Positions 2,313 through 43,637 of a stretch of DNA of 64,000 bases are shown in pieces. The notes beneath the pieces are model-generated. The model searched no databases. It was not told the origin of the DNA and saw nothing but the letters and a program-made list of their open reading frames with translations. The stretch covers positions 43,250-107,249 of the forward strand of contig JAZKBO010000006.1 in assembly GCA_040388575.1 (NCBI GenBank), written 5' to 3'. The stretch comes from Patescibacteria group bacterium (GTDB lineage: Bacteria; Patescibacteriota; Minisyncoccia; Phycocordibacterales; UBA9973). The translations under genes were made by a program, and so were the position numbers. Positions within the stretch are counted from its first letter, which is position 1, and every line of letters begins with the position of its first letter.

Positions 2313-2346
2313 GGTAGATAGACGAATGAACGATAGTAACTGCGAA

Positions 2347-3063: not shown

Positions 3064-3083
3064 GTTGTTCTCCTTATCTCGGG

Positions 3084-3961: not shown

Positions 3962-3991
3962 TGTGTTTTCTTGATCCTTTATACGTCGCGA

Positions 3992-6461: not shown

Positions 6462-7022
6462 ATGAAACAAAACAAAAATGTCGTAGGGGCAGACTTTTTC
6501 GCGCGTTTATGGGAGGAAAGCTGGACATATATTAAAACTGTAGTGGACGTGGTGCACGAGCCAATACTCATTCTAGATAAGAACCTTATGGTGATGGCTG
6601 CAAATGAATCCTTCTACCAGAAGTTTCAAGTAGAAGCTAAAGACACGGAAAAGAAGGTAGTCTACGAACTTGGCAATGGTCAATGGAATATTCCTGCCCT
6701 GCGGAAGCTGCTGGAAGATATTCTGCCGAAAAATACTTTTTTTAAGGGTTTTGAGGTGATACATGAATTCCCTTTTATCGGTGAAAAGATCATGATTTTA
6801 AATGCCCGACAAATTCATACCAAGGATGACACTGCGGCAAAATTATTCCCGCCTATTATACTCCTGGCAATTGAAGATGTAACCGAGATGATGGAAGTAG
6901 CTAAAACTCTCGCCAATCATACCAGTCAATTCCAAAGTAAACTTACCCAGCGCACAGAAAAACTAGAATCCCATATTGGAAAACTAGAAAAAGAGATAAA
7001 TCTACTCAAGAAAAAAATTTAA
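6462..7022 (+). CDS. PAS-domain protein with a C-terminal coiled-coil. Possible sensor or partner of the divergently transcribed ECF sigma factor.
   Basis: 186 aa. 'VHEPILILDKNLMVMAANESFYQKF...EKKVVYEL...IMILNARQIH' fits a PAS fold. The C-terminus carries the heptad repeat 'KLESHIGKLEKEINLLKKKI'. No transmembrane segment. Confidence 0.55.
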   Translation: MKQNKNVVGADFFARLWEESWTYIKTVVDVVHEPILILDKNLMVMAANESFYQKFQVEAKDTEKKVVYELGNGQWNIPALRKLLEDILPKNTFFKGFEVIHEFPFIGEKIMILNARQIHTKDDTAAKLFPPIILLAIEDVTEMMEVAKTLANHTSQFQSKLTQRTEKLESHIGKLEKEINLLKKKI

Positions 7023-8554
7023 GGGGTTGGCGGAGGCGGTAATTCCGGAGGTACGATAGGAGACGCTGGTGGGATGGCCATCGTATTAATTGGGAAAGAG
7101 GAATGGACAATTTCTCCATCGTTCAATTCAACTACAGGAAGTATTTTAACCTCGGGCATTATCATTTTATGTAATTCTGGTTGAATTATTGGCTGGGGCG
7201 CAATATAAGGTTTGATTACAGGTTCCGGTATTGGAATAGGCTTTGGCTTTATTTCGAACTGCACCCTTTCTTCGAAAGTTTTTGTTGTAGCTTCTGCCTG
7301 TTCATTCTTTTCATTGCGCATTAGTTTACCTGCCAGGCGCATGTAGCGGATGATGTGGTGACCAAATAAGTAGTGGAGTATTAACATAATGAGTCCGAGC
7401 AGGATTATGCCGAGTAGTATATAGACCAAATTATCCTGGATGAATTTTGAAATTTCTTGTGGCAAGCGCACATCAATAGACTCGTCCCGCACGTTGCCAG
7501 CTTTGTCCACAGCACGCACTATTACCTCAAGCGAGGCCTTGCCAGAGAGCGGCACTTGGAAAGGGCTCTCCGCATTTACGAATACTGGTGAGGCGGTGGT
7601 GGGCTGGCTTTTATCTATTACTCCGACTTCATAGTGATCCACGCCGGAGAGATTGTCAGTGGTGAAGAAGGAAACGAGAGTCTGCTCGGCATTAATTGTG
7701 GCAGCTACCAGGAAATTTGCTTTCGGGGTAAATTCCGCTGGCGGCGCAGTATCTATACGTATCAGGAAGTGCCCGGTAGTACTCCAAACGTTAGCCTTAT
7801 TTGCTTTGATATGGAAATACCAAAGGCCATCCGAAAGGGATTCGAAGGTTTTTGTACTTTCATCTGTTTCAATTATATTGTCAGGAATAGTGAAAGGTTT
7901 ATCATCTAACTCATAACTGAAGCCAGTCACGCCCGGATCCTTGATCCAAGAAAGTACCGGAGTATTGTTGTTGTACCAATCGGATTGAATTGGATGCGTC
8001 TCCGAAAATACCTGCACGCCTTCCGGTGCCTTGGTTAAAATAGTGTATTCCGCCCGGCCGAGGTCCACTTGGGCGCGCGTACCTAGGCCATCATTTAACA
8101 AAATGTTGGAACTGGCTGCAACGGAGACAGTGGCCGCTCCTGGAGCCTTGGCCATGAAAGTTATAGTGCCAATGAGGCCGGAACCAGTAGTAATACCATT
8201 CGGCACTACACCCACATAGCTGGCAGTACCGCGAGTATTATCAAATTGTGGCGGCTCCACCCAAACCCCGATGATGGATGTGCCACCGGTGGAGTTAATG
8301 ATGGAGAGTTTATCTTTATTGAAATTTACTCGGACTTCAATGCCGTTGATACTCCGGCCTTTGGTGTTGAGGAGTATCGGCACTTGGAAAGTAGAACCCT
8401 CCACAAAGGACCCGGAGCGTGGAGAAAATCCAACTTCAACTTGTGCCAAGAGCTTACTAGCGTCTACATTGACGGCCTGGGCATAAGCCTTCAAGCCAGA
8501 GAATATTATCAGGAAGGTTAGGAAATATATTATTGTGCGCTTAAGAATCAACAT
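7019..8554 (-). CDS. Surface scaffold protein with a signal peptide, a cohesin-like domain, Ig-like domains, one C-terminal TM helix and a Pro-rich cytoplasmic tail.
   Basis: 511 aa. An N-terminal signal (…AYAQA). The cohesin-like beta-domain 'GSFVEGSTFQVPILLNTKGRSINGIEVRVNFNKDKLSI…VWVEPPQ…ILLNDGLGT' is shared with the next two genes. TM 'LVYILLGIILLGLIMLILHYLF' is followed by a KPxP/Pro-rich tail. Paralogous to 8541..9668 and 9623..10516 (shared 'SGVDHYEV' vs 'SGIDHFLV' motif). Confidence 0.55.
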   Translation of the reverse strand: MLILKRTIIYFLTFLIIFSGLKAYAQAVNVDASKLLAQVEVGFSPRSGSFVEGSTFQVPILLNTKGRSINGIEVRVNFNKDKLSIINSTGGTSIIGVWVEPPQFDNTRGTASYVGVVPNGITTGSGLIGTITFMAKAPGAATVSVAASSNILLNDGLGTRAQVDLGRAEYTILTKAPEGVQVFSETHPIQSDWYNNNTPVLSWIKDPGVTGFSYELDDKPFTIPDNIIETDESTKTFESLSDGLWYFHIKANKANVWSTTGHFLIRIDTAPPAEFTPKANFLVAATINAEQTLVSFFTTDNLSGVDHYEVGVIDKSQPTTASPVFVNAESPFQVPLSGKASLEVIVRAVDKAGNVRDESIDVRLPQEISKFIQDNLVYILLGIILLGLIMLILHYLFGHHIIRYMRLAGKLMRNEKNEQAEATTKTFEERVQFEIKPKPIPIPEPVIKPYIAPQPIIQPELHKMIMPEVKILPVVELNDGEIVHSSFPINTMAIPPASPIVPPELPPPPTP

Positions 8555-9668: not shown

Positions 9669-10516
9669 GCTATAAGTAGTATAACAGGAATTAACACTTG
9701 CAGGAAGAGCGCAAATGAATTTTGGGCGCCTAATTTAACAATTCTTTCATTTTGAGACTTATCGATGGCTTTTATGGTAATTTTACTCTTTAAGGTTTGA
9801 TCATGGAGGAGGTAGGGGCTAACGGCAACTTGATATTTACCTCCCAAGCCCCAGGTATACCAAGGACTTTCACGTACTAGAAAGTGGTCTATCCCTGAAC
9901 CTTTATCGGTAGTGCTAAATACCAGGAAGTGTTGGCCGTCATAGATGCTGGCGTCGTTGGCCACATATGCATTGAAGTCTTCCGGCGGATTAGTATCAGC
10001 TACATTAAGATCGGTAGGTGCGTTTGTGACAGCGCTCGTAACTGTAAGAGTTAGCGGCACACCAGTTGTTGAAATTTTTGTGCCTAGCCCGTCATTTTTT
10101 AAAATTTGTAAATTACTCCAGTCGAGCTTACCCACGCCTTGTGCCTTGGCCTCAAGAATAAAAGAAAATAGGAACTTTTTCTCACCCGTGAACCCACCAG
10201 TAGTAATACCAGAGAAGGATATTTTACCAGTACCATCTTGGTGCGGTCGCTCTACCCAGAAATTTATTACAGAATTTCCATCACGGATTTCTTTAAGTTC
10301 AAAAATTTGGGATGGGTAAGTAATGGACCCCTCTACTGCATTTACTGAATCCTTCTGGGGGTCTAGCCACACATCTACTAGGAAACTTTCCTTTTGGGAA
10401 AAGCTGTTTTTATCCGTATGGAAGGAAATCTGCGCAGCTAAAGACACGCCCGGGGAAATAAAGAGGAGTATGAGCAAGATAATAAATTTTTTCATAATTG
10501 TTTTTTTGATTTTCAT
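9623..10516 (-). CDS. Surface scaffold protein with a signal peptide, a cohesin-like domain, an Ig-like domain and a C-terminal TM anchor.
   Basis: 297 aa. Signal '…GVSLAAQ'. Cohesin-like 'FLVDVWLDPQKDSVNAVEGSITYP…NFWVERP…ILKNDGLGT'. C-terminal TM 'LFLQVLIPVILLIACALML' followed by KKKLRKF. Confidence 0.55.
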   Translation of the reverse strand: MKIKKTIMKKFIILLILLFISPGVSLAAQISFHTDKNSFSQKESFLVDVWLDPQKDSVNAVEGSITYPSQIFELKEIRDGNSVINFWVERPHQDGTGKISFSGITTGGFTGEKKFLFSFILEAKAQGVGKLDWSNLQILKNDGLGTKISTTGVPLTLTVTSAVTNAPTDLNVADTNPPEDFNAYVANDASIYDGQHFLVFSTTDKGSGIDHFLVRESPWYTWGLGGKYQVAVSPYLLHDQTLKSKITIKAIDKSQNERIVKLGAQNSFALFLQVLIPVILLIACALMLKKKLRKFLG

Positions 10517-12049: not shown

Positions 12050-12132
12050 CGTTTACATTATAACATAAGTAAGGTGCGAGGGAACAGGTATGAGGTATCA
12101 GCCTTAATAACTCTACGCTCTAGCCTCCTCCC

Positions 12133-14610
12133 TTAATTGCTGCGGAACCAATTCCTGTTTAATATTGAGAAGTCGATAGAGTTAACTATACCATCATGAT
12201 TCAGATCCGCAGCAGAGTTAGCAGTAAACCAAACTAAACTCATGATAGACCAGTCGAGGGAGTTGACGATACCATCAGAGTTTAAATCCCCCGCTATTGG
12301 GGAAGATATTGGTGAAGGCGTTGGTGCTGGTGCGGGAGTAGATGAGGTGTTGGGTTTGAAAGTAGCAATAGATATTTCCCATGGACCATAGATAGTGTTA
12401 CCGGTAGCACTGTAGCTGCCAGCCGCACTGATCTGACGATATTGGGTCATTTGAGTGTTGAGAGTAGCTACGACGCTAGCCCAACCACTACCCGGAACAT
12501 TTACACTTCCGTATTGGCTCAAACTTAAGCCCACTCCAAAACCTGGGCCGGTGGTTGTGGCAACACCCGAGTTAGGAGCACCACTCGTAGCAGAGTTGGA
12601 AGAAGTGTCGGCGAGAATATAGTCCCCTTTAATTTCCATGACGCTAACACCGGTAACTTGAGCGCCTGCGCCCCCGCTCACATGAATAGTTGGAGTACCT
12701 GCTGCTATATTGTGTGCGTAATAAATTGCACTGTCTTGGCCATAACTACCTGTGTACTCTACGGCTTTAGTATATGTATTTACTCCATCAGTAGGCGCCA
12801 CAATAGTGGTGCCGTACCAGCCGGAGATTGCGACTACTAGTGTGTTGCCTGTGGTCACAGGACTTTGTAAAGAAACGGTTCCATTTGATAGTCCAGAGCC
12901 AGATTGAACTAATGACCCCGCGCCACTTCCTGCTGTCGGGCCAACATTTAGTGAAATAGTTGGGCCCGGAGTGGGCGTTGGTGTAGGTGATGGAGAAGGA
13001 CTAGGAGATGGAGATGGAGAAGGTGGAGGAGTAGACGGTGTTGGATTAATTATTGGGGTATTGGTGTCACTGACTGAATAAACATACACGATTGAATTCC
13101 TAATTCCATAGGCTGCCGTGGCAGTACCTACGTTGTTAATAGCTATAAAAATTTGATTGGTCGCTGGATCAAAAGCCGAACCAATAACTGAAGTCAAAGC
13201 TTGATCGCTACCTGGGTAAATGGAAGGAAGCTCTCCATAAGTTGGCGTCCATTCGCTTGTAGGATCGGGGTCATATGGATTTATTATACCTTGCGCAACT
13301 TTCCCTAAATCGTAAGGACTGTAAACTTGCCAACGAGGTATATAACGTGTAGCAAAAATGTGTGCCCAAATATACATATTTCCAGCTTGTGCATAGCCCC
13401 CGACAATAGCAGGAGTGCCCCTACCACCCGTACCTTCTTGTTTATAAGTTATGGTATTACCACTAACACCAGTAATTCTAATAACATCGCCTGTATATTT
13501 GTCATTCACAGCATCAGGACCCGTGGCAGTTTGAAGGTAAAGCACATCCCCTGGCACAAGAACTTTGTTGCCTTTCATCGTTACCGATGCGAGCGTTGCA
13601 GAGGTCGAAGTCGGTGGCGGAGAAGCTAAAACAGTTGTATTCAAATCACCTTCCATCATTGTAGGGAAAACTAAAATACCAGTTTTATTGGGCGTATCTA
13701 CCCATACTGCCGCTTGACGCAACCAAGTAGCTGGGGACCAATAACCTTGATTGCCTACAGGGTTTGTATAAGGCTGATAATAATCCATATAATCAATATT
13801 CGAAGTACGAGCAGCTATTGGGTCAGAGCCAAATAAATAGCGTTGAAGAATAACACTAGGCGTGAAGTTGAGTGTGTCCGGGCAATTGTTAGTGCCAGTA
13901 TCCGGAATGTATGCAGTAAAACTAGGACCAAGCGAAGAAGCTCCGAAAAGAGATGATCGCGTGCGGCTACCGAAACCTGCCGCTAAACGGTATGCTGTCG
14001 ATGGTAAGTATTGACTGGCAAACCAGCTCGGAATAGGCAAGATTCCGTTTTCGGTGAGGCGATTATTTTGATTAAAAGCATAACAGCCAACGTCAGTAAT
14101 AGTATTAGTAGTGTCGTTAAGCGTAGAAGCACCGACACTGTAGTTAGGTACGTTGACCCCATAGGCATCACCGTGATTCCAATATAATCGATTAAGAGTT
14201 TCATCCCAATATAAACCAGAGATAGTATTTTGAGCTGTAGTATTGGGAAGAATTTGTTTCGGGTACATGCCGCCAGTATAAGTATGTTCAAGAGTGGCCA
14301 TTGGATACCTAGGAACGAGAGAAAATCCTGGGTCGTTCACTTGATGAACTTCTTTTGTAGTGTTGTCGGGCTGATGATAATAGAGGAAATGCCTAACTCC
14401 ATTTATATATCTAATAGTAAAGCCTTTGATATCCCCTGGCACTTCAAAAGCCCCTAAGTAGGTGATGTCGTTTTTAGTAATGACAGACTTAGCAGCTGCT
14501 TCTGCTTGGTTAGGATTGTAGGTTATTTTTATTTGACCAACCAAAAAATTCCCGACCAGTAAGCATACTGCTACTAATACTGCCCAATGCTCGTGACGAT
14601 GTGTATACAT
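12133..14610 (-). CDS. Secreted dockerin-tagged protein, member 1 of a six-paralog family (His-rich signal peptide, Cys-rich globular domain, PS/PT linkers, extra ~330-aa C-terminal beta domain, type-I dockerin).
   Basis: 825 aa. N-terminus 'MYTHRHEHWAVLVAVCLLVGNFLVGQIKITYNPNQAEAA' (H-rich n-region, h-region, AxA cleavage site). Linker '[20 protein letters not shown]'. C-terminal domain 'TISLNVGPTAG…VVAISGWYG…YYAHN'. C-terminal dockerin 'AGDLNSDGIVNSLDWSIMSLVWFTANSAADLNHDGIVNSIDFSILNRNWF'. Confidence 0.7.
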   Translation of the reverse strand: MYTHRHEHWAVLVAVCLLVGNFLVGQIKITYNPNQAEAAAKSVITKNDITYLGAFEVPGDIKGFTIRYINGVRHFLYYHQPDNTTKEVHQVNDPGFSLVPRYPMATLEHTYTGGMYPKQILPNTTAQNTISGLYWDETLNRLYWNHGDAYGVNVPNYSVGASTLNDTTNTITDVGCYAFNQNNRLTENGILPIPSWFASQYLPSTAYRLAAGFGSRTRSSLFGASSLGPSFTAYIPDTGTNNCPDTLNFTPSVILQRYLFGSDPIAARTSNIDYMDYYQPYTNPVGNQGYWSPATWLRQAAVWVDTPNKTGILVFPTMMEGDLNTTVLASPPPTSTSATLASVTMKGNKVLVPGDVLYLQTATGPDAVNDKYTGDVIRITGVSGNTITYKQEGTGGRGTPAIVGGYAQAGNMYIWAHIFATRYIPRWQVYSPYDLGKVAQGIINPYDPDPTSEWTPTYGELPSIYPGSDQALTSVIGSAFDPATNQIFIAINNVGTATAAYGIRNSIVYVYSVSDTNTPIINPTPSTPPPSPSPSPSPSPSPTPTPTPGPTISLNVGPTAGSGAGSLVQSGSGLSNGTVSLQSPVTTGNTLVVAISGWYGTTIVAPTDGVNTYTKAVEYTGSYGQDSAIYYAHNIAAGTPTIHVSGGAGAQVTGVSVMEIKGDYILADTSSNSATSGAPNSGVATTTGPGFGVGLSLSQYGSVNVPGSGWASVVATLNTQMTQYRQISAAGSYSATGNTIYGPWEISIATFKPNTSSTPAPAPTPSPISSPIAGDLNSDGIVNSLDWSIMSLVWFTANSAADLNHDGIVNSIDFSILNRNWFRSN
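12146..12386. repeat. Roughly 240-bp exact repeat (copy A), shared with 16905..17145. Encodes the dockerin and linker at the 3' ends of two paralogs.
   Basis: By eye the two stretches are identical from 'aaccaattcctgtttaatattgagaagtcgatagag…' to '…gatatttcccatggac'. The downstream about 700 bp remain similar but diverged. Confidence 0.7.
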
Positions 14611-14626
14611 ATATACTATTTTACCA

Positions 14627-16885
14627 TTAATTACTCTTAAACCAATTTCGGTTAAGGATGCTAAAGTCGATCGAGTTCACGATACCGTCGTGATTTAAGT
14701 CCGCATTTGCATTTGAAGTGAACCATACGATACTCATGATAGACCAGTCGAGGGAGTTAACGATGCCGTCGGCATTCAAGTCCCCTGCAAGTGGTGCACT
14801 AGTACATGCCGGTTCGGTGGCTCCTACTAAAACCCAATCCTTAGTGGATTCATTCCAGTGGTACCAATTATTGTATCTATCATCAAACACATTAACTATG
14901 CCATTAATAAACTTGTAGTAAGGTCCGTGCGCACCGGCTTTATTGCCTCCGCCAGGTAACGAGTAGTCACCATCACGTAGCGTCCACCCGCTTGTGCTGC
15001 TAGTAGGTCCGAAAGTCCAAACATGGCCGAGTGCATCAGTACCTGATGTAACTAAGGTGCAAGGAGCACCGGAAGAAGGTGGGGTCGGCGTTGGTGTAGG
15101 ACTTGGTGTTGGAGATGGTGATGGACTTGGTGCTGGCGCGGGAGCTGGAGGCGGTGTCCCCGGGCTCGCTGTTGGCGGCGTAACTGCATTTGGTCCAACA
15201 TTGAAAACATAGATAGCGTCAGAAACTTGGTATAAAGGATTGTTACCATTTTTAAAAGCTATCATCATTTGATGAGCAAGGGGGTCTGTAATGGTACTAA
15301 CTGGAGGGTAAGTTTCTGTACCAAGATATCCATAATTAACTCCATGGCCACAATTTGGGCAGCCGAAACCTGGCACCAACGAAGACATATCGATTTCCTG
15401 ATTGTAAGAAACATCATATGGTTGTCTGGTACCCGCAATCACTTGCGCATATTGAGCTGGATCATATATTTGAAGTAAAAATACTCCGCGGGAACAACTA
15501 GGCTCACCGTGCATGTATATACAACCATCGAGAACTTCACCACCCACGATTGGCTTGTGGTCACCACTACCAAAATCAGAGTTTAGATTATGATACGCAA
15601 TTTTTCCTGTACTAGGATTGACTGAATCGACAACCATAAAGGAAAAGTCGCGACCATTAGCATTACTGTCACAACCAGGGTCCACTCCGAACCTACAAGT
15701 CTTCACCCATATTAAGTCACCTGTATTTATATTCAGTCCGTCATGTGTAGAAGTAGAAGGCACATAAAAAACTCCTGTTTGATAAAATCCAGAATTATCT
15801 ATTGTAGGAGCTGGTGAAGCTAGCACCGTAGTATTAGCCCAACCTTCGGGTGCCAAAATAGGCACAACTATTCCCTGCTTCGCACCATCGTCGTACCAAC
15901 CCATACTAAAAGTTGAATTAAAACCAAACCAACCATGCCCCTGCCAAGGATCCCAATCCGGCTCATACATTGATTTAGAATAAGTATTCAATCCTAATTT
16001 TGCAGGATACGGCGCAGTGGGCGCTTGCGTTGGTGTACATCCGAGCCCCAAAACACTACAAGTTGGTCCAACAGGATTTTGTCCGTATTGAGCCAGAACA
16101 GTACCACTACCTATAAAAGTATCAGTGTTTGGAGTACAAGGATTCGGAGCGGGTGGAGGTACTGCAAATAGTGTAGGCCCTAGAGAAACTCCAACATAAG
16201 AACCTAGTGGGCCACCGTAGCCCACACCCCAGCGAGCACCGGCTGGCAAATTTGCAGATACGAATGAATTAGGAATACTCAAAACTCCGCCTGCCGCCTG
16301 CGACTGAATGACACCAGTAAGCGCCCAGCAGCCCACATTACTGAAAGTGTGAGTAGAATTATTAAGGGTCATGGCAGCAAATGAATTGTGTGGTGGCGCA
16401 AGTGAGTAGGTATTGCTCCAATTTAATATTAATTCCGAAAGTACACTATCGTAACTTAAGCCCATGCCAACCACAGAAGAATTTTGGAAAGGAGTGCTAC
16501 CAGGACTTCCATTTACAGTAAAAGATCCCCAATCCCCGCCCCAGCTTTCCATAGTTGCTCGATTTACACTTGTTAGAGGAGTATTGCAGGGCATTAAAGT
16601 TGGTTCTGGAAATTCGTAGACATGCTTGTCACCAGCAAAAATAAAATAATGGCGGCTACCGTTTTCATAACGCATTGCTACTGGGTAGCGTGAGCCACCC
16701 TGATCGGAAACCCCGGGAGTTATAAATACGCCTGCGCAAGTGATATCGGAAGTTTGAAGTAAACTACCTGCCGCCTCGGCTTTATCAGTATTGTAGGTTA
16801 TATTTATTTGACCAACTAGAAAAAATCCTACAAATATACTCACTGCTACTAATATCCCCCAATGTATGTGCTTATGTTGATTCAT
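14627..16885 (-). CDS. Secreted dockerin-tagged protein, paralog family member 2.
   Basis: 752 aa. N-terminus 'MNQHKHIHWGILVAVSIFVGFFLVGQINITYNTDKAEAA'. Conserved core motifs (CAGVF, MRYENGSRHYF, PCNTP, GHGWFGF, GWYDDG, QIYDPAQYAQV). Linker '[21 protein letters not shown]'. C-terminal dockerin 'AGDLNADGIVNSLDWSIMSIVWFTSNANADLNHDGIVNSIDFSILNRNWF'. Confidence 0.7.
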   Translation of the reverse strand: MNQHKHIHWGILVAVSIFVGFFLVGQINITYNTDKAEAAGSLLQTSDITCAGVFITPGVSDQGGSRYPVAMRYENGSRHYFIFAGDKHVYEFPEPTLMPCNTPLTSVNRATMESWGGDWGSFTVNGSPGSTPFQNSSVVGMGLSYDSVLSELILNWSNTYSLAPPHNSFAAMTLNNSTHTFSNVGCWALTGVIQSQAAGGVLSIPNSFVSANLPAGARWGVGYGGPLGSYVGVSLGPTLFAVPPPAPNPCTPNTDTFIGSGTVLAQYGQNPVGPTCSVLGLGCTPTQAPTAPYPAKLGLNTYSKSMYEPDWDPWQGHGWFGFNSTFSMGWYDDGAKQGIVVPILAPEGWANTTVLASPAPTIDNSGFYQTGVFYVPSTSTHDGLNINTGDLIWVKTCRFGVDPGCDSNANGRDFSFMVVDSVNPSTGKIAYHNLNSDFGSGDHKPIVGGEVLDGCIYMHGEPSCSRGVFLLQIYDPAQYAQVIAGTRQPYDVSYNQEIDMSSLVPGFGCPNCGHGVNYGYLGTETYPPVSTITDPLAHQMMIAFKNGNNPLYQVSDAIYVFNVGPNAVTPPTASPGTPPPAPAPAPSPSPSPTPSPTPTPTPPSSGAPCTLVTSGTDALGHVWTFGPTSSTSGWTLRDGDYSLPGGGNKAGAHGPYYKFINGIVNVFDDRYNNWYHWNESTKDWVLVGATEPACTSAPLAGDLNADGIVNSLDWSIMSIVWFTSNANADLNHDGIVNSIDFSILNRNWFKSN

Positions 16886-16890
16886 ATTTC

Positions 16891-19524
16891 TTAACTACTT
16901 TTAAACCAATTCCTGTTTAATATTGAGAAGTCGATAGAGTTAACTATACCATCATGATTCAGATCCGCAGCAGAGTTAGCAGTAAACCAAACTAAACTCA
17001 TGATAGACCAGTCGAGGGAGTTGACGATACCATCAGAGTTTAAATCCCCCGCTATTGGGGAAGATATTGGTGAAGGCGTTGGTGCTGGTGCGGGAGTAGA
17101 TGAGGTGTTGGGTTTGAAAGTAGCAATAGATATTTCCCATGGACGATACACATAATCCGCGGTTGCACTGTAGCTGCCGGCAGTAGCGATTTGGCGATAC
17201 ATGGCCATGGAGACGTTAATATTTTCCGCTATTTTAGTCCAGCCACTGCCTGGAGTATTTACAACACCAAGTTGACTTAAGGCCAAACTAACTCCAAAAC
17301 CAGCACTCGGAGTTATAGCTGCACCCGAGTCCGGTGCTCCAGTAAGAGCAGAATTTGAAGAGGTGTCGGAGAGAATATAATCCCCTTTCATTTCCATAAC
17401 ACTGACACCGGTAACTGCAGCACCAACTCCACCACTGATATGGATAGCAGGGGTTCCAGCTTTAATATTATGTGCGTAATATATTGCACTATCTTGACTA
17501 TAATTAGAGCCGGCATATTCTAAAGCTCGCGTGTATGTATTTACGCCATCAGTAACAGCATCGGCAGTTGTACCGTACCAGCCAGCTATTGCGACAACGA
17601 TAGTGTTGCCTGCTGACACCGGACTTGGTAGCGAAACAGTTCCAGATGATATTCCTGAAGCAGATTGTACTAAAGAGCCTGCGCCAGTCCCGGCTGTCGG
17701 GCCAACATTGAGAGACGTTGTGGGGCCAGGAGTCGGAGAAGAAGGTGAAGGAGTAGGACTTGGAATTGGTGAAGGTGACGGACTTGGTGCTGGAGAAGGC
17801 TGGGGAGCTAAAGGTGGAGTAACTGAGCCCGATCCGGTATTGAATACATAGACAAGATTGGACTCTTGATATCGAGGACTGTTTCCGTTGGTGAATGCCA
17901 TCATAATTTGTTTAGCAGAGTTATCCACTATAGTACTTGATGGATAATGATCGTAAACAAAACGAGATGTCACTCCACTACCAGACTCTGGGGAACCGAA
18001 AGCTTTCACAAAATTTGTTAAATCAATTTCTTCATTGTATTTAACATCATAAGGTTGCCGAGTACCGGCAGCTACTTGCGCATACTGCGCTGGGTCGTAA
18101 ATTTGTAATCGATAAGTAGAACGCGAACATGCTGGCTGGCCGTGGAAATACACACAACCAAATAATACCGGACTACCCACAACAGGCTTATGAGTACCAC
18201 TACTTACATCCGCATTATAAATATGAAAAGCGATACGCCCTGTGGCTGAATTTACTGAATCCACAATAATGAATGACAGATTGCGGCCATTGGCGGTACT
18301 GTCACAACCCGGATCTACTCCTACTGTACATGTTTGTATCCACATTAAGTCACCCGGATTTACATTTAAACCATCGTGAGTAGAAGTTGAAGATACATAG
18401 AAAGCACCGGTGGGAGTGTAACCAGAATCATCTATGGTAGGTGCTGGGTTAGCAAGTACTGAAGTATTGAGCCAACCTTCTGGCACCTGTATCGGCACAA
18501 CTACTCCTTGTTTTATGCCATCATCATACCAACCAATACTATGATACATATCATAGCCAAACCAGCCGTGACCGCCCCAAGGGTCCCAGATAGTTCCATA
18601 TGTGCCTTCTGAATATTTATTGAAAGCTAACTGCGCTGCGTAAGGTGGTGTCGGCGGCTGAGTTGGAGTACAGCCTATACCAAGATCACTGCAAGTAGGA
18701 CCGTCATAATTTGCGAGATAAAGTGCTAGGATCTTACTGTAATCTACTGGGTAATTCGTAGCTGGAGCACATGGATTATCAGCTGGTGGAATAGTGGCAA
18801 ATAGCGTTGGTCCATAGCTAGCCGATGCAGCTTGACCAAGGGAGCCTCCGAAGCCAACGCCCCAACGCGCGCCAGAGGGTAAGTTGGCATTAACGAAACT
18901 ACTCGGAATATTTAAAATTCCGGTGCCAGTTACTGTGGTGTTGGTGTTGTTAAGCCCCCAGCAACCTTTGGTAGTGAGAGTGTGAGTTGTATCATTTAAA
19001 GTTGCCGCAGCAAAACTGTTGCGTTGAGCCGTATTACTATAATTACCGCTCCAGGATAGGAGCAAGCGAGATGCAACATTGTCATAATTCATCCCGTAAG
19101 CATCGACAGACTGAGTGTAACTATTGGGTATATAATCATCTTTTTCATGAACGATGTAATATCCCCAGTCACCACCCCAACTCTCGAGGCTCGCTCGATT
19201 TAGGGAGGCGGTTGGTGTGTTACAAGGCAAGAGCTGTGGCTCTGGAAATTCATATACATGAGAGTCGCCAGCGTACATAAAGTAATGTCGATTACCGTTT
19301 TCATAGCGCATGGCCATAGGAAAATAATAAGTACCATTGCCTGTGGGTACGCCAGGAGTGAGAAATGCTCCCGCGCAGGTAAGGTCACTTGTTGCAAGTA
19401 CACTACTTGCAGCCTGTGCTTGATTAGCATAGTAAGTAATATGTATCTGCCCAACTAGAAAAACTCCTACAAATATACTCACTGCTACTAATATAGCCCA
19501 ATGCATGTTGTGATGCCGGTTCAT
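16891..19524 (-). CDS. Secreted dockerin-tagged protein, paralog family member 3, with the same extra C-terminal beta domain as member 1.
   Basis: 877 aa. 'MNRHHNMHWAILVAVSIFVGVFLVGQIHITYYANQAQAA'. Core motifs as in member 2. C-terminal domain 'TTSLNVGPTAGTGAGSLVQ…VVAIAGWYG…YYAHN'. The last about 80 aa, including the dockerin, are identical to member 1 (240-bp exact nucleotide identity). Confidence 0.7.
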   Translation of the reverse strand: MNRHHNMHWAILVAVSIFVGVFLVGQIHITYYANQAQAASSVLATSDLTCAGAFLTPGVPTGNGTYYFPMAMRYENGNRHYFMYAGDSHVYEFPEPQLLPCNTPTASLNRASLESWGGDWGYYIVHEKDDYIPNSYTQSVDAYGMNYDNVASRLLLSWSGNYSNTAQRNSFAAATLNDTTHTLTTKGCWGLNNTNTTVTGTGILNIPSSFVNANLPSGARWGVGFGGSLGQAASASYGPTLFATIPPADNPCAPATNYPVDYSKILALYLANYDGPTCSDLGIGCTPTQPPTPPYAAQLAFNKYSEGTYGTIWDPWGGHGWFGYDMYHSIGWYDDGIKQGVVVPIQVPEGWLNTSVLANPAPTIDDSGYTPTGAFYVSSTSTHDGLNVNPGDLMWIQTCTVGVDPGCDSTANGRNLSFIIVDSVNSATGRIAFHIYNADVSSGTHKPVVGSPVLFGCVYFHGQPACSRSTYRLQIYDPAQYAQVAAGTRQPYDVKYNEEIDLTNFVKAFGSPESGSGVTSRFVYDHYPSSTIVDNSAKQIMMAFTNGNSPRYQESNLVYVFNTGSGSVTPPLAPQPSPAPSPSPSPIPSPTPSPSSPTPGPTTSLNVGPTAGTGAGSLVQSASGISSGTVSLPSPVSAGNTIVVAIAGWYGTTADAVTDGVNTYTRALEYAGSNYSQDSAIYYAHNIKAGTPAIHISGGVGAAVTGVSVMEMKGDYILSDTSSNSALTGAPDSGAAITPSAGFGVSLALSQLGVVNTPGSGWTKIAENINVSMAMYRQIATAGSYSATADYVYRPWEISIATFKPNTSSTPAPAPTPSPISSPIAGDLNSDGIVNSLDWSIMSLVWFTANSAADLNHDGIVNSIDFSILNRNWFKSS
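16905..17145. repeat. Roughly 240-bp exact repeat (copy B) of 12146..12386.
   Basis: See copy A. The 3' coding ends of paralogs 1 and 3 have been homogenised (consistent with gene conversion). Confidence 0.7.
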
Positions 19525-19552: not shown

Positions 19553-19740
19553 TTACGGGCTTGCACCTCCCCCACCGCCTGAGCCACCGCCACCTTGCGA
19601 GCCGCCGCCGCCGGAGCCGCCATTATCTCCCTGATCACCAGAGCCGCCAGAGCCGCCGCCAGAGCCGCCGCCGCCTTGAGAACTACCGCCGCCAGAGCCG
19701 CCGCCAGATGCTCCACCCCCGCCACCGCGTGAGATAAAAT
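19553..19740 (-). repeat. GC-rich simple-sequence tract (GGN/GCC codon repeats) encoding the poly-Gly/Ser C-terminal tail of the giant protein.
   Basis: ggagccgccgcc / gccaccgcc repeats. Locally far higher GC than the surrounding gene. Confidence 0.6.
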
Positions 19741-22700
19741 GCCAACAAGCAGAATCATTGCCACCTTGATTGTTAGAATGGTCATTGAAAGTAATTATGC
19801 CGGTACCATTAGCACAGCCGCTATCCATAACATCAACGAAGTCCATAATAACAGAACCGATCAAATTAAGATTCCACTGATTGCCTGGGGAATCAGAAGC
19901 TATCGAAATATGATTATTGGAATTACCAACTATATGTAATATTCCTGAAAAGCCGGTGTCCCTGGCATGTTTAAATTGCACCAGGGTGCTACCAGTTGTA
20001 TCGGTAAAGTCATTGAAGGTGGTCGCAGTTGATCCATCAATAGTAACAGCGGTACTTGGATTACTTGGCTCAATTATTACCGCCCCAGCGGCTGGATTGA
20101 AAATTCCATTATTTGTGAATCCTGTACCGGTCAATGTAATATTGTGGCTTCCGTTAGCATCTAAGGTTTGTGAAGCATCGATGATAATTGTTTTAGCCTT
20201 AGTGTTAGAGCCGAGGTTAAGCGTCGTTGCACCAGATCCTGCAGATATTTGAACATTTCCTAGATCTTCTGGGGTGCTATTTCCATCGGTAAGAGTCTGT
20301 GTCGTACCTCCGTTAAATACTGTAGTACCGGATCCTGCATGAATACTAGCGCCATTGGTGACAGTCAGGTTACCTTTTAGAGTTGTGTTGGTATTTGGTA
20401 ATGAATACGTACCTGAACCACCTAAGATAAGATGGTTGAATGTTGTTGGGGCTATAGTGGCTGTTGTGCCAGTATATTCTACGGTACCGGTTGAAGGTGT
20501 AAATGTTCCGGTAACTGAAAGTGGAGTACCAGTACCAGTGAGGGTTATAGTATTAGAACCATTAGCATCTAACGTTTGACTAGAATCAACTGCAATAGAA
20601 GTGGCCTTGATTGATGAGCCAAGTTGAGCAGTAGTTGGGACGCTACCTGGTGTCCAAGCTTCGACTTCAATCACACGACTATAACCAGTACTTCCTGACT
20701 CCTGTGTATCGTGAACTAGAACTCTGACCTTTGAAGTATGGACGTTTAATCCAGTTAGTTGAGTCCAAACATGATTATTATTTGTTATAGCTCCACCAGT
20801 AAATATCTGCCAAGCCGCACCGTCCCAATACTGTATATCAAAATCCTCAAGGCCAAAGTCGGTTGAAGTCATGCCGAGGGTTGGATCTGTTGGAGAGCTG
20901 AAGTTATCTTGCATGCCAAATACATCCATTTCACCGAGGGTATATGAGGTGTCGAAATCCACCTCTAACCAGTCATTACTAAAGTCGTTGATGGTATTGT
21001 CATTCCAACCACCATTGGTACCCCAGACATCACCCTTGCGGTTACCGTCATTGGCAAAAGCTGGTAAGTAGTTAGCGTCAAATGTAGTCGAACCTGAAGC
21101 TGTGCCACCATTACCCGAGGCAGCAACATTCGTTGGAGTGCCGGCAGCGCCTGAAATTTGTATATTACCTAGATCTCTCTTAGTGCTATTGTTATCTGTT
21201 ATCGCCTGAGTTGTTCCACCACTGAAGATAAGTGTACCGCCACCGCGAGTTATATTTGCTCCAGAGGTTATGACTAAATTGCCTTTGATGTTGGCATCAG
21301 TGCCTGGAGTGGTGTAGGTACCGGAGCCGCCAAGAGTAAGATTATTAAATGTTGCTGCAGTTACTGTAGCGCTAGAACCTGTATAAACTACTGTGGAAGA
21401 ATCGCGAGAAAATGTTCCGCTGACAGTTAGAGGTGTTCCAGAACCCGTAAGTGTTATTGTTGAGCCATTGGTAGTCAAGGCTCCCTTAGTAGTGATATTA
21501 ATGGAGCCTGCAGTTAAGGAACGATTTGATCCAGTTGTATCTAATATGTCATTACCGGTTGAAGATGCATTACCTATCGTCACGGCATTATTTACTACAA
21601 TATTCGCAGGAAGATTGTAAGTGGTAGCCGTAGAGTCAGAAGCTGTGCCCACGCCCAGGCCGCCGTAAGTGGTGTTTTCAATATCTGTAGTACTTGTTCC
21701 CTCATAATTTACTGTACCACTTGTAGCGGTGAGAGTTCCACCATTGTTGTACAGCGGTCTTGAAGTTGTAGTGCCGGAGCCTGTGAGTGAAATAGTATTA
21801 CTGCCTAGAGTTAAGACCTGTGATGCATCTATAGTAATTTTTGTAGCCTTAATAGATGAGCCCAAACTTAGTGTAGATGTTCCTGAATTTGCCGATATTT
21901 GAAGTAAGCCTAAATCACTATTTGTGGCGTTGCCGGTTATAGTTTGCGTACCGCCCCCGCCTTTGGCAAAAATTATTTTATTCGCTCCGGACTTGGTGAC
22001 AACTGTTCCAGTACTGACCAACATATCACCACGCAAAGTTATATTGGCTGATGGTAGAGTATATGTCGGTGTGCCAGATGCTGGAGTGAAAGAAAGATTA
22101 TTATATGTTGCCGCTGTGATATTTGTAGCTGATGTGCCAGCATACACTAATGTAGAGGCACCTGGAGTAAATGTGCCGCCCAGTGTAAGTGGATCACCAG
22201 AACCTGAAAGCGTAATAGTAGAACTATTCGGTGTAAGGGTAGATAATGTCGGGATTATAAGACTGCCAGCGGTAAGGTTATAATTGCTTCCAGTTGTATC
22301 GAGCACAACATAACCTTCATGTCCGGAAGTACCATCAGGTTGGAGATGTAACGTACTGGCTACAGAAGTTGTACCACCGAGGTTAAAAGTATTAGTGCCA
22401 TCAGACCATGCCTCTAATAAGATATTGTGGCCAACTGTAATGGCACCTAGGATGGTAAAGCTAGTATTAGCACTATTCGGGTAAAGTTCTAGATCATAAT
22501 AGTTTACCGCTTCCACACTTGTATTGCCTACTCCGTAATAACCAACCCATCCTGTTCCACCAGTAAATGTTCCGCTATTTATGAACGGCCTTGATCCAGC
22601 AGTGCCTGATTTATTTAAATACAAATTACCAGAACCCATGTTGAGCCCTCCAGAAGCGCCCACACTGAGTACATTCGATGAACCCATGTTAAGTGTCCTT

Positions 22701-25700
22701 GTAGATAGTAATAGGTTTCCTGCTGTAACAGTGACATTTCCACCCGGAGTAATATTGCCCGACATAGTAAAGTCTGGAGTTCCCGAGGCCGCGTTTATTA
22801 CAAGATTACCGTATGTCGCAGCCACTACGCTGGTTGCTGCAGTTTGCATATAAGTTACCGTCGAGCTCGCCCCATAAGTATATGTCGTGAAGCTTGCAGG
22901 ATATGCGGAAGTGCCCGACATTTCAAAGAAGGCACCGTTAGAGACTGTAAATGTTTTGCTAGAAGCGCCAGTTATTGCGGAACCCCCGTTCTTTAGGGTT
23001 CCTGCACTGACAGTTAAGTTCCCATCAGCAATTAAATTAGAAGCCAACGTCCAGACTCCGCCGGAACCGTTAAAGTTAACAATATTAAAATCTCCAACGC
23101 CATCGATGGAATCAACAACTTCGTTTGTGGTAGAAGTAAAATTAACTGTTGAACTTCCAGGATTGAAAGTACTATTGTTTTCCCAAGAACCAGAGATATT
23201 AAATGTTGCAGTCGAAGTGGCAGTTAAAGTTCCATCGATCAGTATATTGTGAGTACTTAAAATTTCTGATGAACCAATAGTAAAGGTGTCGGCTGATCCC
23301 ACCTCAATAGTTTCATCGGCGTAGGAATTAGAGCAACCCTTGACTGAAAGTGTGCTGGAAGCTACTGAATACATGACATCTTCATCATCGCTACAATCAT
23401 ACCCTGTCCCAGAAGTATTCATGTCGGTAAGAGTTAGCGACTGAAAATCGTTTAGTGAACCAATAGATATAACATTGGTATCAAGTATCATCGCTGTGAT
23501 GTCCCCTGTGCCGTCATACTTAGCCACTGCGGTAGACTCAGCACTGTCAGCTACGTTATCAAGCCAGACAGTGACTATTTGACCAGAACTTACGGTAACG
23601 TTTGAAATAGACCAGGCACTAGAAGCGGTAACACCACTTTGACCCGCAAGCACACCATTAACTGCAACTTTAACTACAATAACGTCTCCGGCATTTGTTG
23701 TTCCGGAAATCGTGATACCGCAGCCAACGAAAGTCCACGCATTACTGCCATTGTCAGTAGAACCATTGGCTGTAATAGAGCCTGCTTGATGATCGGCAGC
23801 TACGTTCCAGATAGTAACTGTTCCGCTGTTGGTCCAGGTTCTGGAGGAAGCTGCAGTAATAACTATGTCGTCCGTGCCTGCACAAACAGTGCTGCCATTA
23901 GCCTCAATAATAATAGTTCCTGAATTAGAAACATTGCCCGTAAGAGTAATGTCGCCAGTGCCGAGGTTAGACCAAGTGCCGCTCGCACCCACAGTGACAG
24001 CGCCTGTTGTTAAATTAAATGTGGCTCCCTGCGACAAAGTTCCGGTAGTTATGCCAAGCGCACCACTGACTGTTACATTACCTGTTTGAGTAAATGTCGG
24101 AGTACCTGAAGCGGCGGCAATAGTTAAATTATTGAAAGTTTCCGCGGCAATATCCGTAGTCGAAGTTCCGGCAAATACAACAGTACCCGTAGATTCAGTG
24201 AAAGAACCATTGTTCACAAATGGACGTGAAGTGCTAGTACCAGAGCCGGTGAGAGTTAAAGTATTAGAACCATTAGCATCCAAGGTTTGAGAAGAGTCAA
24301 CTATTATTTTGGTGGCTTTGATACTAGAGCCGAGGGCAAGGGTCGTGGATGAACCTCCACCACCAGCAAATCCCCCACCTTGTATTCTCCAATAGTCGCC
24401 ACTCCAACCAGTTACATCAGGATTAATATCTGTAGTCACTCCTTCATTATAAAGGAAGTGAAAAGTGTAAGCAGTTTCAGTTAATGCTTCAGTAAATCCG
24501 GATGGGGGTGTTATAGCTTGAGGGCTAGCAGTTGCCATTGCTAAGACGACAATGCCAGTTGATGGCATAGTAATCGTGCCGGGTGTTGCATGGCCTGCTC
24601 CAACAGTCACATTGTCGTTAGCTGAATAACCTTGAGCACTTCCAAGATTAGATACTTCCCAAACACCCACTACTCTATTTCCTGCTCCTGACCCTCCTCC
24701 CCATGAAGCCGTTACCACATCATTTACTGCACCATTAGTTGATGCGGTATAGAACATTTCCATAAAGTTGGCATTAGGGTCTGTGGTAGTGGTATGTTTT
24801 GCTCCCATCGAAGTAAATGTATCACCTGCCGTATTAGTAATTGTCGGATCACTCAAGCCTGTATCGCCAGCGTTGTACCATTGGACAAAGACAATAAGTC
24901 CGTTACCTGCGGTGTGAGTTTGTGCATTTGTGACTTGTGACCAAACGAAATAGCCACCGCCAGATCCATCTACGAAGTTTTGATATGTTGGCGATCCTCC
25001 TCCCCCGCCGGAAACCTCCAATATCCCCAAATCTTGTTTAGTGGTGTTGTTGTCGGTCACCGTTTGAGTTGTTCCGCCAGTTAAAATAATTTTATTCGAT
25101 GAGGATTTGGTAACTGTTGCCCCATTAGTTACAACCAAATTACCATAAAGAGTTACGTCTGATGCAGGCAATGTATATGTTCCTGTACCGCCTAAGGTTA
25201 GATTTCCGTAAGTTGCGGCTGTGATAGTAGGAGCAGTTTGTTTATACGTTACAGTCGAGCTAGCTCCATATGTATATGTAGTAAAGCTTGCAGGGTAGGC
25301 CGAAGTGCCAGACATTTCAAAGAAGGCGCCGTTAGAGACTGAAAAGGTATCAGTAGCTCCATTACCAGTAATAGAGAAGCCTCCATTTTTCAGAGTACCA
25401 TTTGGGATATCTATTGCAGTAGCACTAGCAGCATCAGTTTCTAAGTTTGCACCCAATGTCCACTCTCCCCCAGTACCGTTAAATTTAAGACGGTTAAAGT
25501 CAGATGAGCCTGAAAGAGTTCCACCGATTGTATGACCTGCATCAGTTGCTTCAAAAATTACCAGGCCAGAATTGTTGGTAAAGGTGCCGGAGTTGGAATA
25601 ATTTCCATAAAGCTCTAGTGTGCCAGAGGTTGAAGTAAAAGTACCGCCCGAGATGGTTAGGTCTATGGCGCTGATGCCACCCGAACCGCCGGTGAATGTA

Positions 25701-41277: not shown

Positions 41278-41300
41278 GTTAATAATATGAATTAATAATT

Positions 41301-43613: not shown

Positions 43614-43637
43614 TATAATTTATATTAATTAATAATT

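What the first reader, a model, noticed from the sequence alone, without database searches (positions are those of the whole stretch)
12146..17145. Roughly 240-bp exact identity between the 3' ends of paralogs 1 and 3, a recent gene conversion
Paralogs 1 (12133..14610) and 3 (16891..19524) are separated by another paralog, yet their last about 80 codons (linker plus dockerin) are base-for-base identical. The upstream about 700 bp are only about 75% identical. That is the signature of gene conversion homogenising the dockerin end, or of recent recombination shuffling variable cores onto constant ends. It is also a likely assembly or phasing hazard.
Basis: seen in the sequence. Interest (0 to 1): 0.5.

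Follow-up and report, generated by a model that had tools for sequence, protein, structure and literature searches.

The report
Gene conversion between two dockerin genes
Two neighbouring but otherwise diverged surface-protein genes share a 241-base stretch that is letter-for-letter identical at their dockerin-encoding ends, best explained by one gene recently copying that piece from the other: a real but ordinary event that also makes this locus hard to assemble.

Summary
Window 12146-12386 equals 16904-17144 base for base (241 bp, about 80 codons). It lies in the 3' ends of two minus-strand paralogs, P1 (12133-14610) and P3 (16891-19524), which are separated by P2. The tract encodes the last strand of an accessory beta-sandwich module, a Pro/Thr linker and nearly the whole Dockerin_1 domain. 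The last three codons and the stop differ. The next ~650 aligned columns upstream are 70.6% identical, and the N-terminal cores are only about 30% identical in protein.

Selection cannot explain the identity. All six dockerins in the window are nearly the same protein, yet every other pair differs at 25-36 of 59 third-codon positions; P1/P3 differ at one.

It is not a polishing artefact. Contigs built independently from raw reads (Logan, SRR26324622) match the window at 100% and stop exactly 30 nt inside the tract borders. A second public assembly joins P3's flank to P1's flank across the tract, which is either a misassembly or a real 4758-bp deletion.

In a related contig the cores are orthologous across genomes, but the dockerins group by genome. 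This suggests long-term concerted evolution, with the P1/P3 tract as its only fresh trace.

Verdict: recent interparalog gene conversion, a known kind of event, of modest interest.

The parts
12146..12386 (-). Exact tract, copy 1 (in P1). It encodes the last beta-strand of module X (~12340-12386), the Pro/Thr linker (~12295-12339) and the dockerin (12145-12294, P1 aa 773-822).
   Evidence: Ungapped identity scan; maximal exact repeats; sequence read directly; Pfam Dockerin_1; module end defined by the alignment with P0004 and by the model.
16904..17144 (-). Exact tract, copy 2 (in P3), 4758 bp from copy 1.
12133..12145 (-). Divergent tail of P1 (Phe third base, then RSN and stop). It marks the 3' border of the tract. 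Its counterpart in P3 is 16891-16903 (KSS and stop), which sits 5 nt from the P2 start codon.
   Evidence: 6 of 13 nt differ; sequences. The downstream flanks are unrelated: P1 is followed by an 83-nt spacer, P3 by the start of P2.
12387..13023 (-). Older shared segment in P1: Pro/Thr linker 1 plus module X, a predicted beta-sandwich found only in P1 and P3. It is 70.6% identical to P3 17145-17781, and third positions match at about 40-60%.
17145..17781 (-). P3 counterpart of the older shared segment (linker 1 plus module X).
12133..14610 (-). P1, 825 aa: N-terminal TM/signal anchor, ~480-aa five-bladed beta-propeller-like core, PT linker, module X, PT linker, dockerin.
14627..16885 (-). P2, 752 aa: the paralog lying between the two tract copies. 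Its dockerin is only ~70% identical in nucleotides to the tract.
   Evidence: The exact protein is found on Logan contig L011.
16891..19524 (-). P3, 877 aa: same architecture as P1, but the core is only ~30% identical to P1's.
39019..46259 (-). Second trio of paralogs: P4 39019-41277, P5 41301-43613, P6 43638-46259. Their dockerins are 67-83% identical in nucleotides to each other and to those of P1-P3, with no exact tract. They serve as the internal control.
   Evidence: Logan contig L014 runs through all three without a break.
19553..37069 (-). Giant ORF 1 (5838 aa), immediately upstream of P3 in the same orientation (28-nt gap). Giant ORF 2 (46304-62437, 5377 aa) likewise precedes P6.
   Evidence: Pfam finds almost nothing: a weak F5_F8_type_C_2 hit in ORF 1 and LVIVD repeats in ORF 2.
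7019..8554 (-). Candidate membrane-anchored cohesin protein (511 aa: signal peptide, cohesin-like region at aa 53-155, TM helix near aa 375-395). It is a possible common partner of the dockerins.
   Evidence: Pfam Cohesin E 2.9e-4, 21.5 bits, below the 24.1 cut-off; translation; no PDB sequence hit. Weak evidence only.

Best explanation
A recent ectopic (interparalog) gene conversion copied about 241 bp from one of two tandem, same-strand paralogs into the other. The piece copied covers the end of the accessory module, the Pro/Thr linker and the dockerin.

Inferred mechanism: a break or gap in one copy was repaired by homologous recombination using the other copy, 4.76 kb away, as template. 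The heteroduplex or synthesis tract could not extend further. On the 3' side homology ends near the stop codon, because P3 is followed 5 nt later by the start of P2 while P1 is followed by unrelated spacer. On the 5' side the adjacent 90 nt are the most diverged part of the shared module (58% identity).

What is shown: the exact tract, its sharp borders, the homogenised synonymous sites, the old and distinct cores, and the presence of the repeat in raw-read contigs.

What is inferred: the recombination pathway, and the view that the event is one episode of long-term concerted evolution keeping all dockerins of a genome matched to one cohesin partner. The donor cannot be identified.
For: 1. The tract is 241 bp at 100% identity against 70.6% for the flanking ~650 aligned columns. 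No run of 241 occurred in 20,000 permutations; the longest seen was 58.

2. In the 177-nt linker-plus-dockerin block, P1/P3 differ at 1 third-codon position of 59. The 14 other paralog pairs differ at 25-36 of 59, while differing at only 3-11 amino acids.

3. P1/P3 identity falls into three tiers. Cores are 20-50% identical in protein, module X is about 75% identical in protein and about 71% in nucleotides, and the last 80 codons are 100% identical.

4. Core orthologs exist across genomes: W_P1 to L001 Q4 at 73%, W_P4 to Q2 at 82%, W_P5 to Q1 at 70%. The dockerin peptides nevertheless cluster by genome.

5. Relatives carry no fresh tract. Dockerins in L001 and L009 are 59-79% identical in nucleotides, with longest exact runs of 18 bp or less in L001.

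6. Contigs built from reads agree with the window. L011 equals window 16933->12357 and L012 equals window 12175->6207, both at 100%. Each ends exactly 30 nt inside a tract border. L014 passes unbroken through the three dockerin ends of the second trio and stops 30 nt inside another exact repeat.

7. MEPS-sized seeds exist. A 27-bp block is identical in the dockerins of P1, P2 and P3.

8. Other exact tracts with decaying flanks occur among internal repeats of giant ORF 2, so recent homogenisation is not unique to this site in the locus.
Against: No reads or long reads were available. The pairing of the four flanks across the repeat, and the copy number of the 4758-bp unit, rest on the window's own assembly. 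One public contig (L013) pairs them differently.

The Logan reads may come from the same sample as the window, so they are not a biologically independent replicate.

No close sister strain was found, so donor, recipient and age cannot be set.

If the two copies were only about 71-76% identical before the event, RecA-type recombination would be inefficient. The event may therefore have renewed an already similar island, and this cannot be tested here.
Confidence: 0.85

Rival explanations
1. Assembly or polishing artefact. On this reading the two copies are not truly identical, or not both present. The identity would come from repeat collapse, cross-mapping during consensus polishing, or a duplicated contig end.
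For: A 241-bp exact repeat is a known hazard. A second assembly of the same strain (GCA_040384165.1, L013) crosses the tract from the P3 flank into the P1 flank. Contigs of that assembly also carry 10-, 20- and 59-nt deletions relative to the window. No reads could be inspected.
Against: Logan contigs, built directly from reads with k=31 and no polishing, are 100% identical to the window. They terminate exactly 30 nt inside the tract at three of its four borders (L011 both ends, L012), as expected if one unitig is entered from two contexts and left into two contexts. The fourth junction (P3 flank into the tract) is present in L013 with no mismatches.

Cross-mapping could only erase a few differences. 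Dockerins that are ~70-76% identical, like the other pairs, would not cross-map. Even in the worst case the tract was already nearly identical.

Both copies are in frame, internal to the contig, and have unique flanks on both sides.
Confidence: 0.06
2. Purifying selection or codon-level constraint. Here the dockerin and linker would be so constrained, at protein, mRNA or codon level, that the two genes simply never diverged there.
For: The dockerin peptide is very conserved among all six paralogs, with 0-11 differences in 59 residues.
Against: The same conserved peptide is encoded with 25-36 third-position differences of 59 in every other pair, and with 33-46 of 70 in the six paralogs of L001. 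The tract also covers a Pro/Thr linker and a module strand that are not conserved in the family. The identity stops abruptly in the middle of a domain.
Confidence: 0.01
3. Recent recombination of another kind. One possibility is a reciprocal or unequal exchange within the array that is still segregating, with the 241-bp repeat as its joint and the 4758-bp unit (P2 plus most of P1) a recently gained or amplifiable cassette. Another is import of the 3' end from a different strain's allele.
For: L013 corresponds exactly to the zero-copy (deletion) product of recombination between the two tract copies. The array has conserved dockerin-intergenic-signal-anchor junctions of about 78% identity that could support unequal exchange.
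Against: An unequal crossover that created the duplication would leave the whole duplicated interval identical. Here the identity is 241 bp and the flanks are 58-79% identical or unrelated. P1 and P3 cores have different orthologs or relatives in L001. L013 is a 1.4-kb contig from a fragmented short-contig assembly and may simply be a wrong path through the repeat.
Confidence: 0.07
4. Programmed diversification: the tract would be the constant part of a targeted variation system, such as a DGR template/variable repeat pair or a cassette-switching system.
For: A constant 3' block lies next to a sharply more variable stretch in a surface-protein family.
Against: Substitutions in the adjacent variable stretch show an ordinary transition-dominated spectrum with no adenine bias. 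No reverse transcriptase or recombinase domain was found in the ORFs scanned. Both copies are full-length expressed-type genes, not silent cassettes.
Confidence: 0.01

Closest known systems
Interparalog (ectopic) gene conversion in bacterial multigene families, for example the duplicated tuf genes of Salmonella/E. coli, and concerted evolution of rRNA operons (from general knowledge, not tested here)
   Same: There is a short tract of perfect identity embedded in diverged paralogs. Synonymous sites are homogenised and the borders are sharp. The tract and its flanks give conflicting phylogenies. Both copies sit on one replicon, a few kb apart in direct orientation.
   Different: Only the C-terminal docking module of modular surface proteins is homogenised, while the functional cores are old and about 30% identical. 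The donor cannot be polarised. The organism is uncultivated, so dependence on RecA is only inferred.
Species-specific cohesin-dockerin pairs of cellulosomes (Clostridium thermocellum versus C. cellulolyticum; Pages et al. 1997, cited in bioRxiv 10.1101/2023.11.21.568195)
   Same: All dockerins within a genome resemble each other more than they resemble dockerins of orthologous enzymes in a related genome. The domain is a Pfam Dockerin_1 with two Ca-binding repeats, DLNSDGIVNSLD and DLNHDGIVNSID.
   Different: No multi-cohesin scaffoldin was found. The only cohesin-like hit is below Pfam's cut-off. The cargo is an uncharacterised five-bladed propeller family, not a recognised CAZyme. The genes sit next to 5,000-aa giant ORFs. 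The dockerin is compact, with an inter-repeat segment about 6 residues shorter than in the solved type I dockerins it aligns to.
Dockerin-bearing surface proteins of Patescibacteria and Omnitrophota (PMC10633639; bioRxiv 10.1101/2023.11.21.568195)
   Same: Dockerin domains occur on envelope proteins of uncultivated or epibiotic bacteria outside cellulolytic Firmicutes, in loci with giant genes.
   Different: The taxon of this window was not established. Here the dockerins are single C-terminal modules on 750-880-aa proteins, not repeats inside a giant protein.

Membership tests
Interparalog gene-conversion tract | A segment with significantly higher identity than the flanking homologous sequence | tested here: met
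   241/241 identical against 70.6% in the flanks. The maximum run in 20,000 permutations was 58.
Interparalog gene-conversion tract | Silent (synonymous) sites are homogenised, so selection on the protein cannot be the cause | tested here: met
   1 of 59 third positions differs in P1/P3, against 25-36 of 59 in the 14 other pairs that encode nearly the same peptide.
Interparalog gene-conversion tract | Phylogenetic incongruence between the tract and the rest of the gene | tested here: met
   The P1 core is 73% identical to L001 Q4 and about 30% to P3. The tract is identical to P3's. Dockerins cluster by genome, cores by orthogroup.
Interparalog gene-conversion tract | Both copies really exist in the genome, in the stated contexts | tested here: inconclusive
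   All four flank-tract junctions are present in independent contigs (L011, L012, L013). Which left flank pairs with which right flank, and the copy number, need spanning reads.
Interparalog gene-conversion tract | Non-reciprocal transfer with an identifiable donor and recipient | not testable with these tools
   No sister strain or outgroup for module X was found.
Type I dockerin (Pfam PF00404) | Profile match above the curated threshold | tested here: met
   32.8-37.3 bits against a 22.9 cut-off in all six paralogs. phmmer hits solved dockerins such as 2yik, 2y3n and 1daq.
Type I dockerin (Pfam PF00404) | Two duplicated Ca-binding F-hand segments | tested here: met
   DLNSDGIVNSLD and DLNHDGIVNSID are read directly and align to both repeats of solved dockerins.
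Type I dockerin (Pfam PF00404) | A cognate cohesin is encoded and is bound by the dockerin | tested here: inconclusive
   The only candidate is ORF 7019-8554, with Cohesin at 21.5 bits, below the 24.1 cut-off. Binding cannot be tested.
Cellulosome | A scaffoldin with several cohesins, plus dockerin-bearing carbohydrate-active enzymes | tested here: not met
   No cohesin repeats in the giant ORFs or neighbours. Cores match no Pfam or NCBIfam CAZyme model. There is only a fold-level resemblance to five-bladed propellers, which include GH32/43/62 but also non-enzymes.
Diversity-generating retroelement target (VR/TR pair) | Adenine-specific mismatches between the repeats, and a nearby reverse transcriptase | tested here: not met
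   The tract has no mismatches. The adjacent differences show no A bias. No RT domain was found in the scanned ORFs.
Assembly artefact (collapsed or duplicated repeat) | The repeat or its junctions are absent from independent read-derived sequence | tested here: not met
   Logan SRR26324622 contigs are 100% identical to the window and break 30 nt inside the tract borders. The control contig L014 does not break at non-identical dockerins.

The most novel reading that the evidence does not exclude
The tract could be the visible tip of an ongoing process. On this reading, the dockerin ends of a whole family of propeller-type surface proteins are kept uniform within each genome by repeated gene conversion, so that all of them fit a single membrane-anchored cohesin. 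This would happen in an uncultivated, non-cellulolytic lineage, encoded beside giant surface proteins. The same repeats would make the array expand and contract in the population, with L013 as a real 4758-bp deletion allele. That would be concerted evolution of a protein-docking 'plug' coupled to copy-number plasticity of its cargo genes.
Probability: 0.3. Interest if true: 0.5.

Novelty: new member of a known kind. Interest (0 to 1): 0.3.

Why it matters
For users of this genome, the tract is a concrete warning. Short-read graphs break or mis-join here. One public assembly already joins P3 to the tail of P1, which would delete P2 and most of P1 on paper.

Biologically, it is a clean, datable example of module-level homogenisation. 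The docking module is copied between genes whose functional cores have been separate since before the split from the nearest known relative. Together with the genome-specific dockerin sequences, it suggests how a one-cohesin, many-dockerin system can change specificity without stranding its cargo proteins.

The event itself is textbook gene conversion. The less ordinary part is the locus around it: an unannotated five-bladed-propeller family (610 clusters), dockerins outside cellulosomes, and duplicated cassettes of one giant gene plus three paralogs.

Tried and rejected
- **Exact look-ups of P1 and P3.** Neither is on record, as expected if other assemblies break at the tract.
- **Collection scans.** Scans of genome contigs with P3 peptides and with a degenerate dockerin pattern found nothing. 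The first metagenome scan found nothing. The second, with a shorter pattern, gave seven distant relatives (L003-L009) and no close strain.
- **Word-index protein searches.** Queries with P1, the core alignment and module X returned only 3, 3 and 1 hits. They missed relatives that the exhaustive HMMER search then found (610 clusters).
- **Sequence searches for core and module X.** Pfam, NCBIfam and PDB sequence searches all came back empty.
- **Other readings.** The DGR, selection and whole-gene-duplication readings were rejected.
- **Signals near the tract.** The promoter/terminator scan of 11.4-20 kb was no better than shuffled sequence. Rfam and tRNA scans of the window were empty.
- **Taxonomy.** It could not be established. 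The DUF5671 neighbour and the literature only hint at Patescibacteria-like organisms. Accession numbers were not found in the paper library.
- **Literature.** Searches for dockerin with 'gene conversion' or 'concerted evolution' found nothing relevant.
- **afdb50 fold library.** It was unavailable.
Full report
**1. The observation**

All relevant genes lie on the minus strand. There are three tandem ORFs: P3 at 16891-19524 (877 aa), P2 at 14627-16885 (752 aa) and P1 at 12133-14610 (825 aa). They follow a 5838-aa ORF at 19553-37069.

A second cassette has the same layout. A 5377-aa ORF (46304-62437) is followed by P6 (43638-46259), P5 (41301-43613) and P4 (39019-41277). All six paralogs end in a Pfam Dockerin_1 domain scoring 32.8-37.3 bits against a cut-off of 22.9. 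Nothing else in them matches Pfam.

An ungapped comparison at offset 4758 shows an unbroken identical run, 12146-12386 = 16904-17144, 241 bp. A maximal-repeat scan of the whole window confirms it and ranks it as the third-longest exact repeat.

The run does not reach the stop codons. It ends at the third base of a Phe codon (TTC in P1, TTT in P3). The remaining three codons differ, RSN* versus KSS*.

**2. More than chance, and not selection**

Over the ~895-column homologous 3' region, P1 and P3 are 70.6% identical outside the tract. In 20,000 permutations of the mismatch positions the longest identical run averaged 23.6 and never exceeded 58. The analytic bound for a run of 241 is about 4e-34.

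The six dockerin peptides are nearly the same, with 0-11 differences in 59 residues, which gives an internal control. The 14 other paralog pairs differ at 25-36 of 59 third-codon positions in this block. P1/P3 differ at one, and that one is the border base. Protein-level constraint therefore cannot produce the identity.

**3. Anatomy of the mosaic**

A codon-window profile of P1 against P3 shows three tiers.

- The N-terminal ~530 aa are 20-50% identical in protein.
- From the first Pro/Thr linker onward (P1 aa ~533-741, window 12387-13023), the two share an accessory 'module X' that no other paralog has. It is about 75% identical in protein and about 71% in nucleotides, with third positions matching at only 40-60%.
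- The last 80 codons are identical.

The step at the 5' border is abrupt. The adjacent 90 nt are the most diverged part of module X, at 58% nucleotide and 43% protein identity.

An alignment with the one distant homolog of module X (P0004) shows that the module ends at '...PWEISIATFKP'. A low-confidence model (pLDDT 57, all-beta) agrees. The tract therefore starts inside the module's last strand. It then runs through the linker TPAPAPTPSPISSPI and the dockerin AGDLN...NRNWF. The tract borders do not coincide with domain borders. This fits a mechanical recombination tract better than selected domain swapping.

On the 3' side, homology between the two genes' surroundings ends near the stop codon. 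P3 is followed 5 nt later by the ATG of P2, whereas P1 is followed by an unrelated 83-nt spacer. Loss of homology on both sides is a sufficient explanation for the borders, though this is an inference.

**4. Evolutionary context**

The nearest relatives found are tandem arrays on metagenome contigs. L001 (GCA_034680565.1) carries six dockerin paralogs in a row. L009 carries a large ORF followed by three paralogs.

Core domains show clear cross-genome orthology: P1 to Q4 at 73%, P4 to Q2 at 82%, and P5 to Q1 at 70%. The 50-aa dockerin peptides instead cluster by genome, all six from the window together and all six from L001 together. That is the pattern of concerted evolution of the docking module, or of parallel co-evolution with a partner.

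Synonymous sites of the L001 and L009 dockerins are saturated. Nucleotide identity is 59-79%, and the longest exact run in L001 is 18 bp. The same holds for every window pair except P1/P3. Homogenisation, if recurrent, is therefore rare, and this tract is the only fresh case seen.

The junction 'dockerin end - intergenic - next gene's signal anchor' is itself a ~300-bp repeat of 77-79% identity along the arrays. Exact blocks of 27-30 bp occur at dockerin and signal-anchor ends. These are long enough to seed recombination.

**5. Is it an assembly artefact?**

Exact look-ups of neighbouring complete proteins retrieved contigs of the same strain from other assemblies.

| Contig | Source | Match to window | Where it ends |
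|---|---|---|---|
| L011 | Logan, SRR26324622 | 16933->12357, 100% | Starts 30 nt inside tract copy 2; ends 30 nt inside tract copy 1 |
| L012 | Logan, SRR26324622 | 12175->6207, 100% | Starts 30 nt inside the 3' side of copy 1 |
| L014 (control) | Logan, SRR26324622 | 51074->38390, 100% | Runs unbroken through the three non-identical dockerin ends of P6, P5 and P4; stops 30 nt inside another exact repeat (51045-51076) |

This is the behaviour of a k=31 graph at a true exact repeat that is entered from two contexts and left into two contexts.

The fourth junction, P3 module X into the tract, is present in L013 (GCA_040384165.1) without mismatches. But L013 continues into P1's tail and downstream DNA. 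It reads P3-flank / tract / P1-flank. Relative to the window, that is either a wrong path through the repeat or the deletion product of recombination between the two copies.

In general the data fit C-R-[D...A-R]n-B, with n=1 in the window and n=0 in L013. Only spanning reads or coverage can fix n.

Polishing artefacts could at most erase a few differences, because dockerins as diverged as the other pairs would not cross-map. The conclusion of very recent homogenisation is robust either way.

**6. What the genes are**

An exhaustive HMMER search with the six cores found 610 clusters at E<=1e-3 and 78 at E<=1e-30. None has a Pfam domain for the core.

A 63-sequence alignment gave a confident model of the P1 core, with pLDDT 86.9 and pTM 0.87. 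It shows an N-terminal transmembrane helix and a mostly-beta domain.

Module X gives only generic beta-sandwich matches.

A possible partner for the dockerins is ORF 7019-8554. It has a signal peptide, a cohesin-like region and a transmembrane helix. Its Cohesin hit is below Pfam's threshold, at 21.5 against 24.1 bits.

The organism was not identified. A DUF5671 neighbour, and published reports of dockerin proteins in Patescibacteria and Omnitrophota, are only hints.

**7. Rivals**

- **Selection.** Rejected by the synonymous-site controls.
- **Whole-gene duplication followed by divergence.** Rejected by the saturated third positions upstream and the distinct orthologs.
- **DGR-type system.** Rejected by the unbiased substitution spectrum and the absence of a reverse transcriptase.
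- **Assembly artefact.** Unlikely for the identity itself, but still open for flank pairing and copy number.
- **Still-segregating reciprocal event.** Possible only as an addition to the conversion, through L013.

**8. Verdict**

This is a recent interparalog gene conversion of about 241 bp. It homogenised the linker-plus-dockerin end of two tandem surface-protein genes, on top of an older exchange of an accessory module, in a family whose dockerins evolve in concert within genomes.

The kind of event is well known. The searched literature holds no report of it for dockerins, so it is a new member of a known kind. Interest is modest. The practical value is the assembly warning, and the broader curiosity lies in the unannotated locus.

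Noticed in passing
window 52964-54146, 58478-59143, 59715-60767 (inside giant ORF 46304-62437, minus strand): Three in-frame internal repeat copies are 88-94% identical and carry a mosaic of exact tracts. These are 53274-53821 = 59895-60442 (548 bp), 53142-53476 = 58656-58990 (335 bp) and 58788-58990 = 59895-60097 (203 bp). Identity decays on both sides, so this looks like conversion among internal repeats. They are longer than the P1/P3 tract and are an even bigger assembly hazard.
   Followed up: partly
L013 (GCA_040384165.1, JAWVHB010247143.1) versus window 17527-17145 + tract + 12145-11390: This public contig of the same strain joins P3's module X to P1's tail across the tract. It is equivalent to deleting 4758 bp (P2 plus most of P1). 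It may be a misassembly or a real deletion allele produced by recombination between the repeats.
   Followed up: partly
L010 and L013 versus window ~20544-20602, ~18508, ~17205: Contigs of GCA_040384165.1 match the window with zero mismatches but carry deletions of 59, 20 and 10 nt. The 10- and 20-nt deletions have 3-4 bp microhomology at their edges. The 20-nt and 10-nt deletions would frameshift P3; protein P0008 is the truncated product of the 20-nt one. These may be assembly errors or population variants.
   Followed up: partly
window 19553-37069 + 12133-19524 and 46304-62437 + 39019-46259: The locus is a duplicated four-gene cassette: a giant ORF of more than 5,000 aa followed by three dockerin paralogs. 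P2 and P5 are 65% identical in nucleotides over their full length. The same layout, a large ORF then three dockerin paralogs, is found in the distant metagenome contig L009.
   Followed up: partly
[not shown]
   Followed up: yes
window 7019-8554 (minus): This 511-aa protein has a signal peptide, a sub-threshold Cohesin match (aa 53-155, 21.5 bits) and a TM helix near aa 375-395, then a Pro-rich tail. It is a candidate membrane anchor for the dockerin proteins.
   Followed up: partly
window 41153-41518 versus 43489-43852; L001 5428-5739 versus 9837-10147 and others: The junction 'dockerin 3' end + short intergenic + next gene's signal-anchor 5' end' is conserved as one ~300-bp unit at 77-79% nucleotide identity between successive genes of the arrays. 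It is a ready substrate for unequal exchange.
   Followed up: no
window ~2300-4900: A GC-rich island (50-55% against 40-46% elsewhere) encodes pyrimidine-synthesis genes. These are OMP decarboxylase (2347-3114), a phosphoribosyltransferase (3084-3809) and dihydroorotate dehydrogenase (3992-4912). It may be horizontally acquired.
   Followed up: no
window 10538-11602 (minus): This 354-aa protein has a Big_6 Ig-like domain and, at its extreme C-terminus (aa 334-352), a match to only the first third of the dockerin profile. It could be a truncated or half dockerin.
   Followed up: no
window 12120-12132 (minus strand, just after the P1 stop): A strong Shine-Dalgarno-like run, GGGAGGAGG, follows the P1 stop codon directly. 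No start codon lies at the usual distance; the next ORF starts 83 nt downstream.
   Followed up: no
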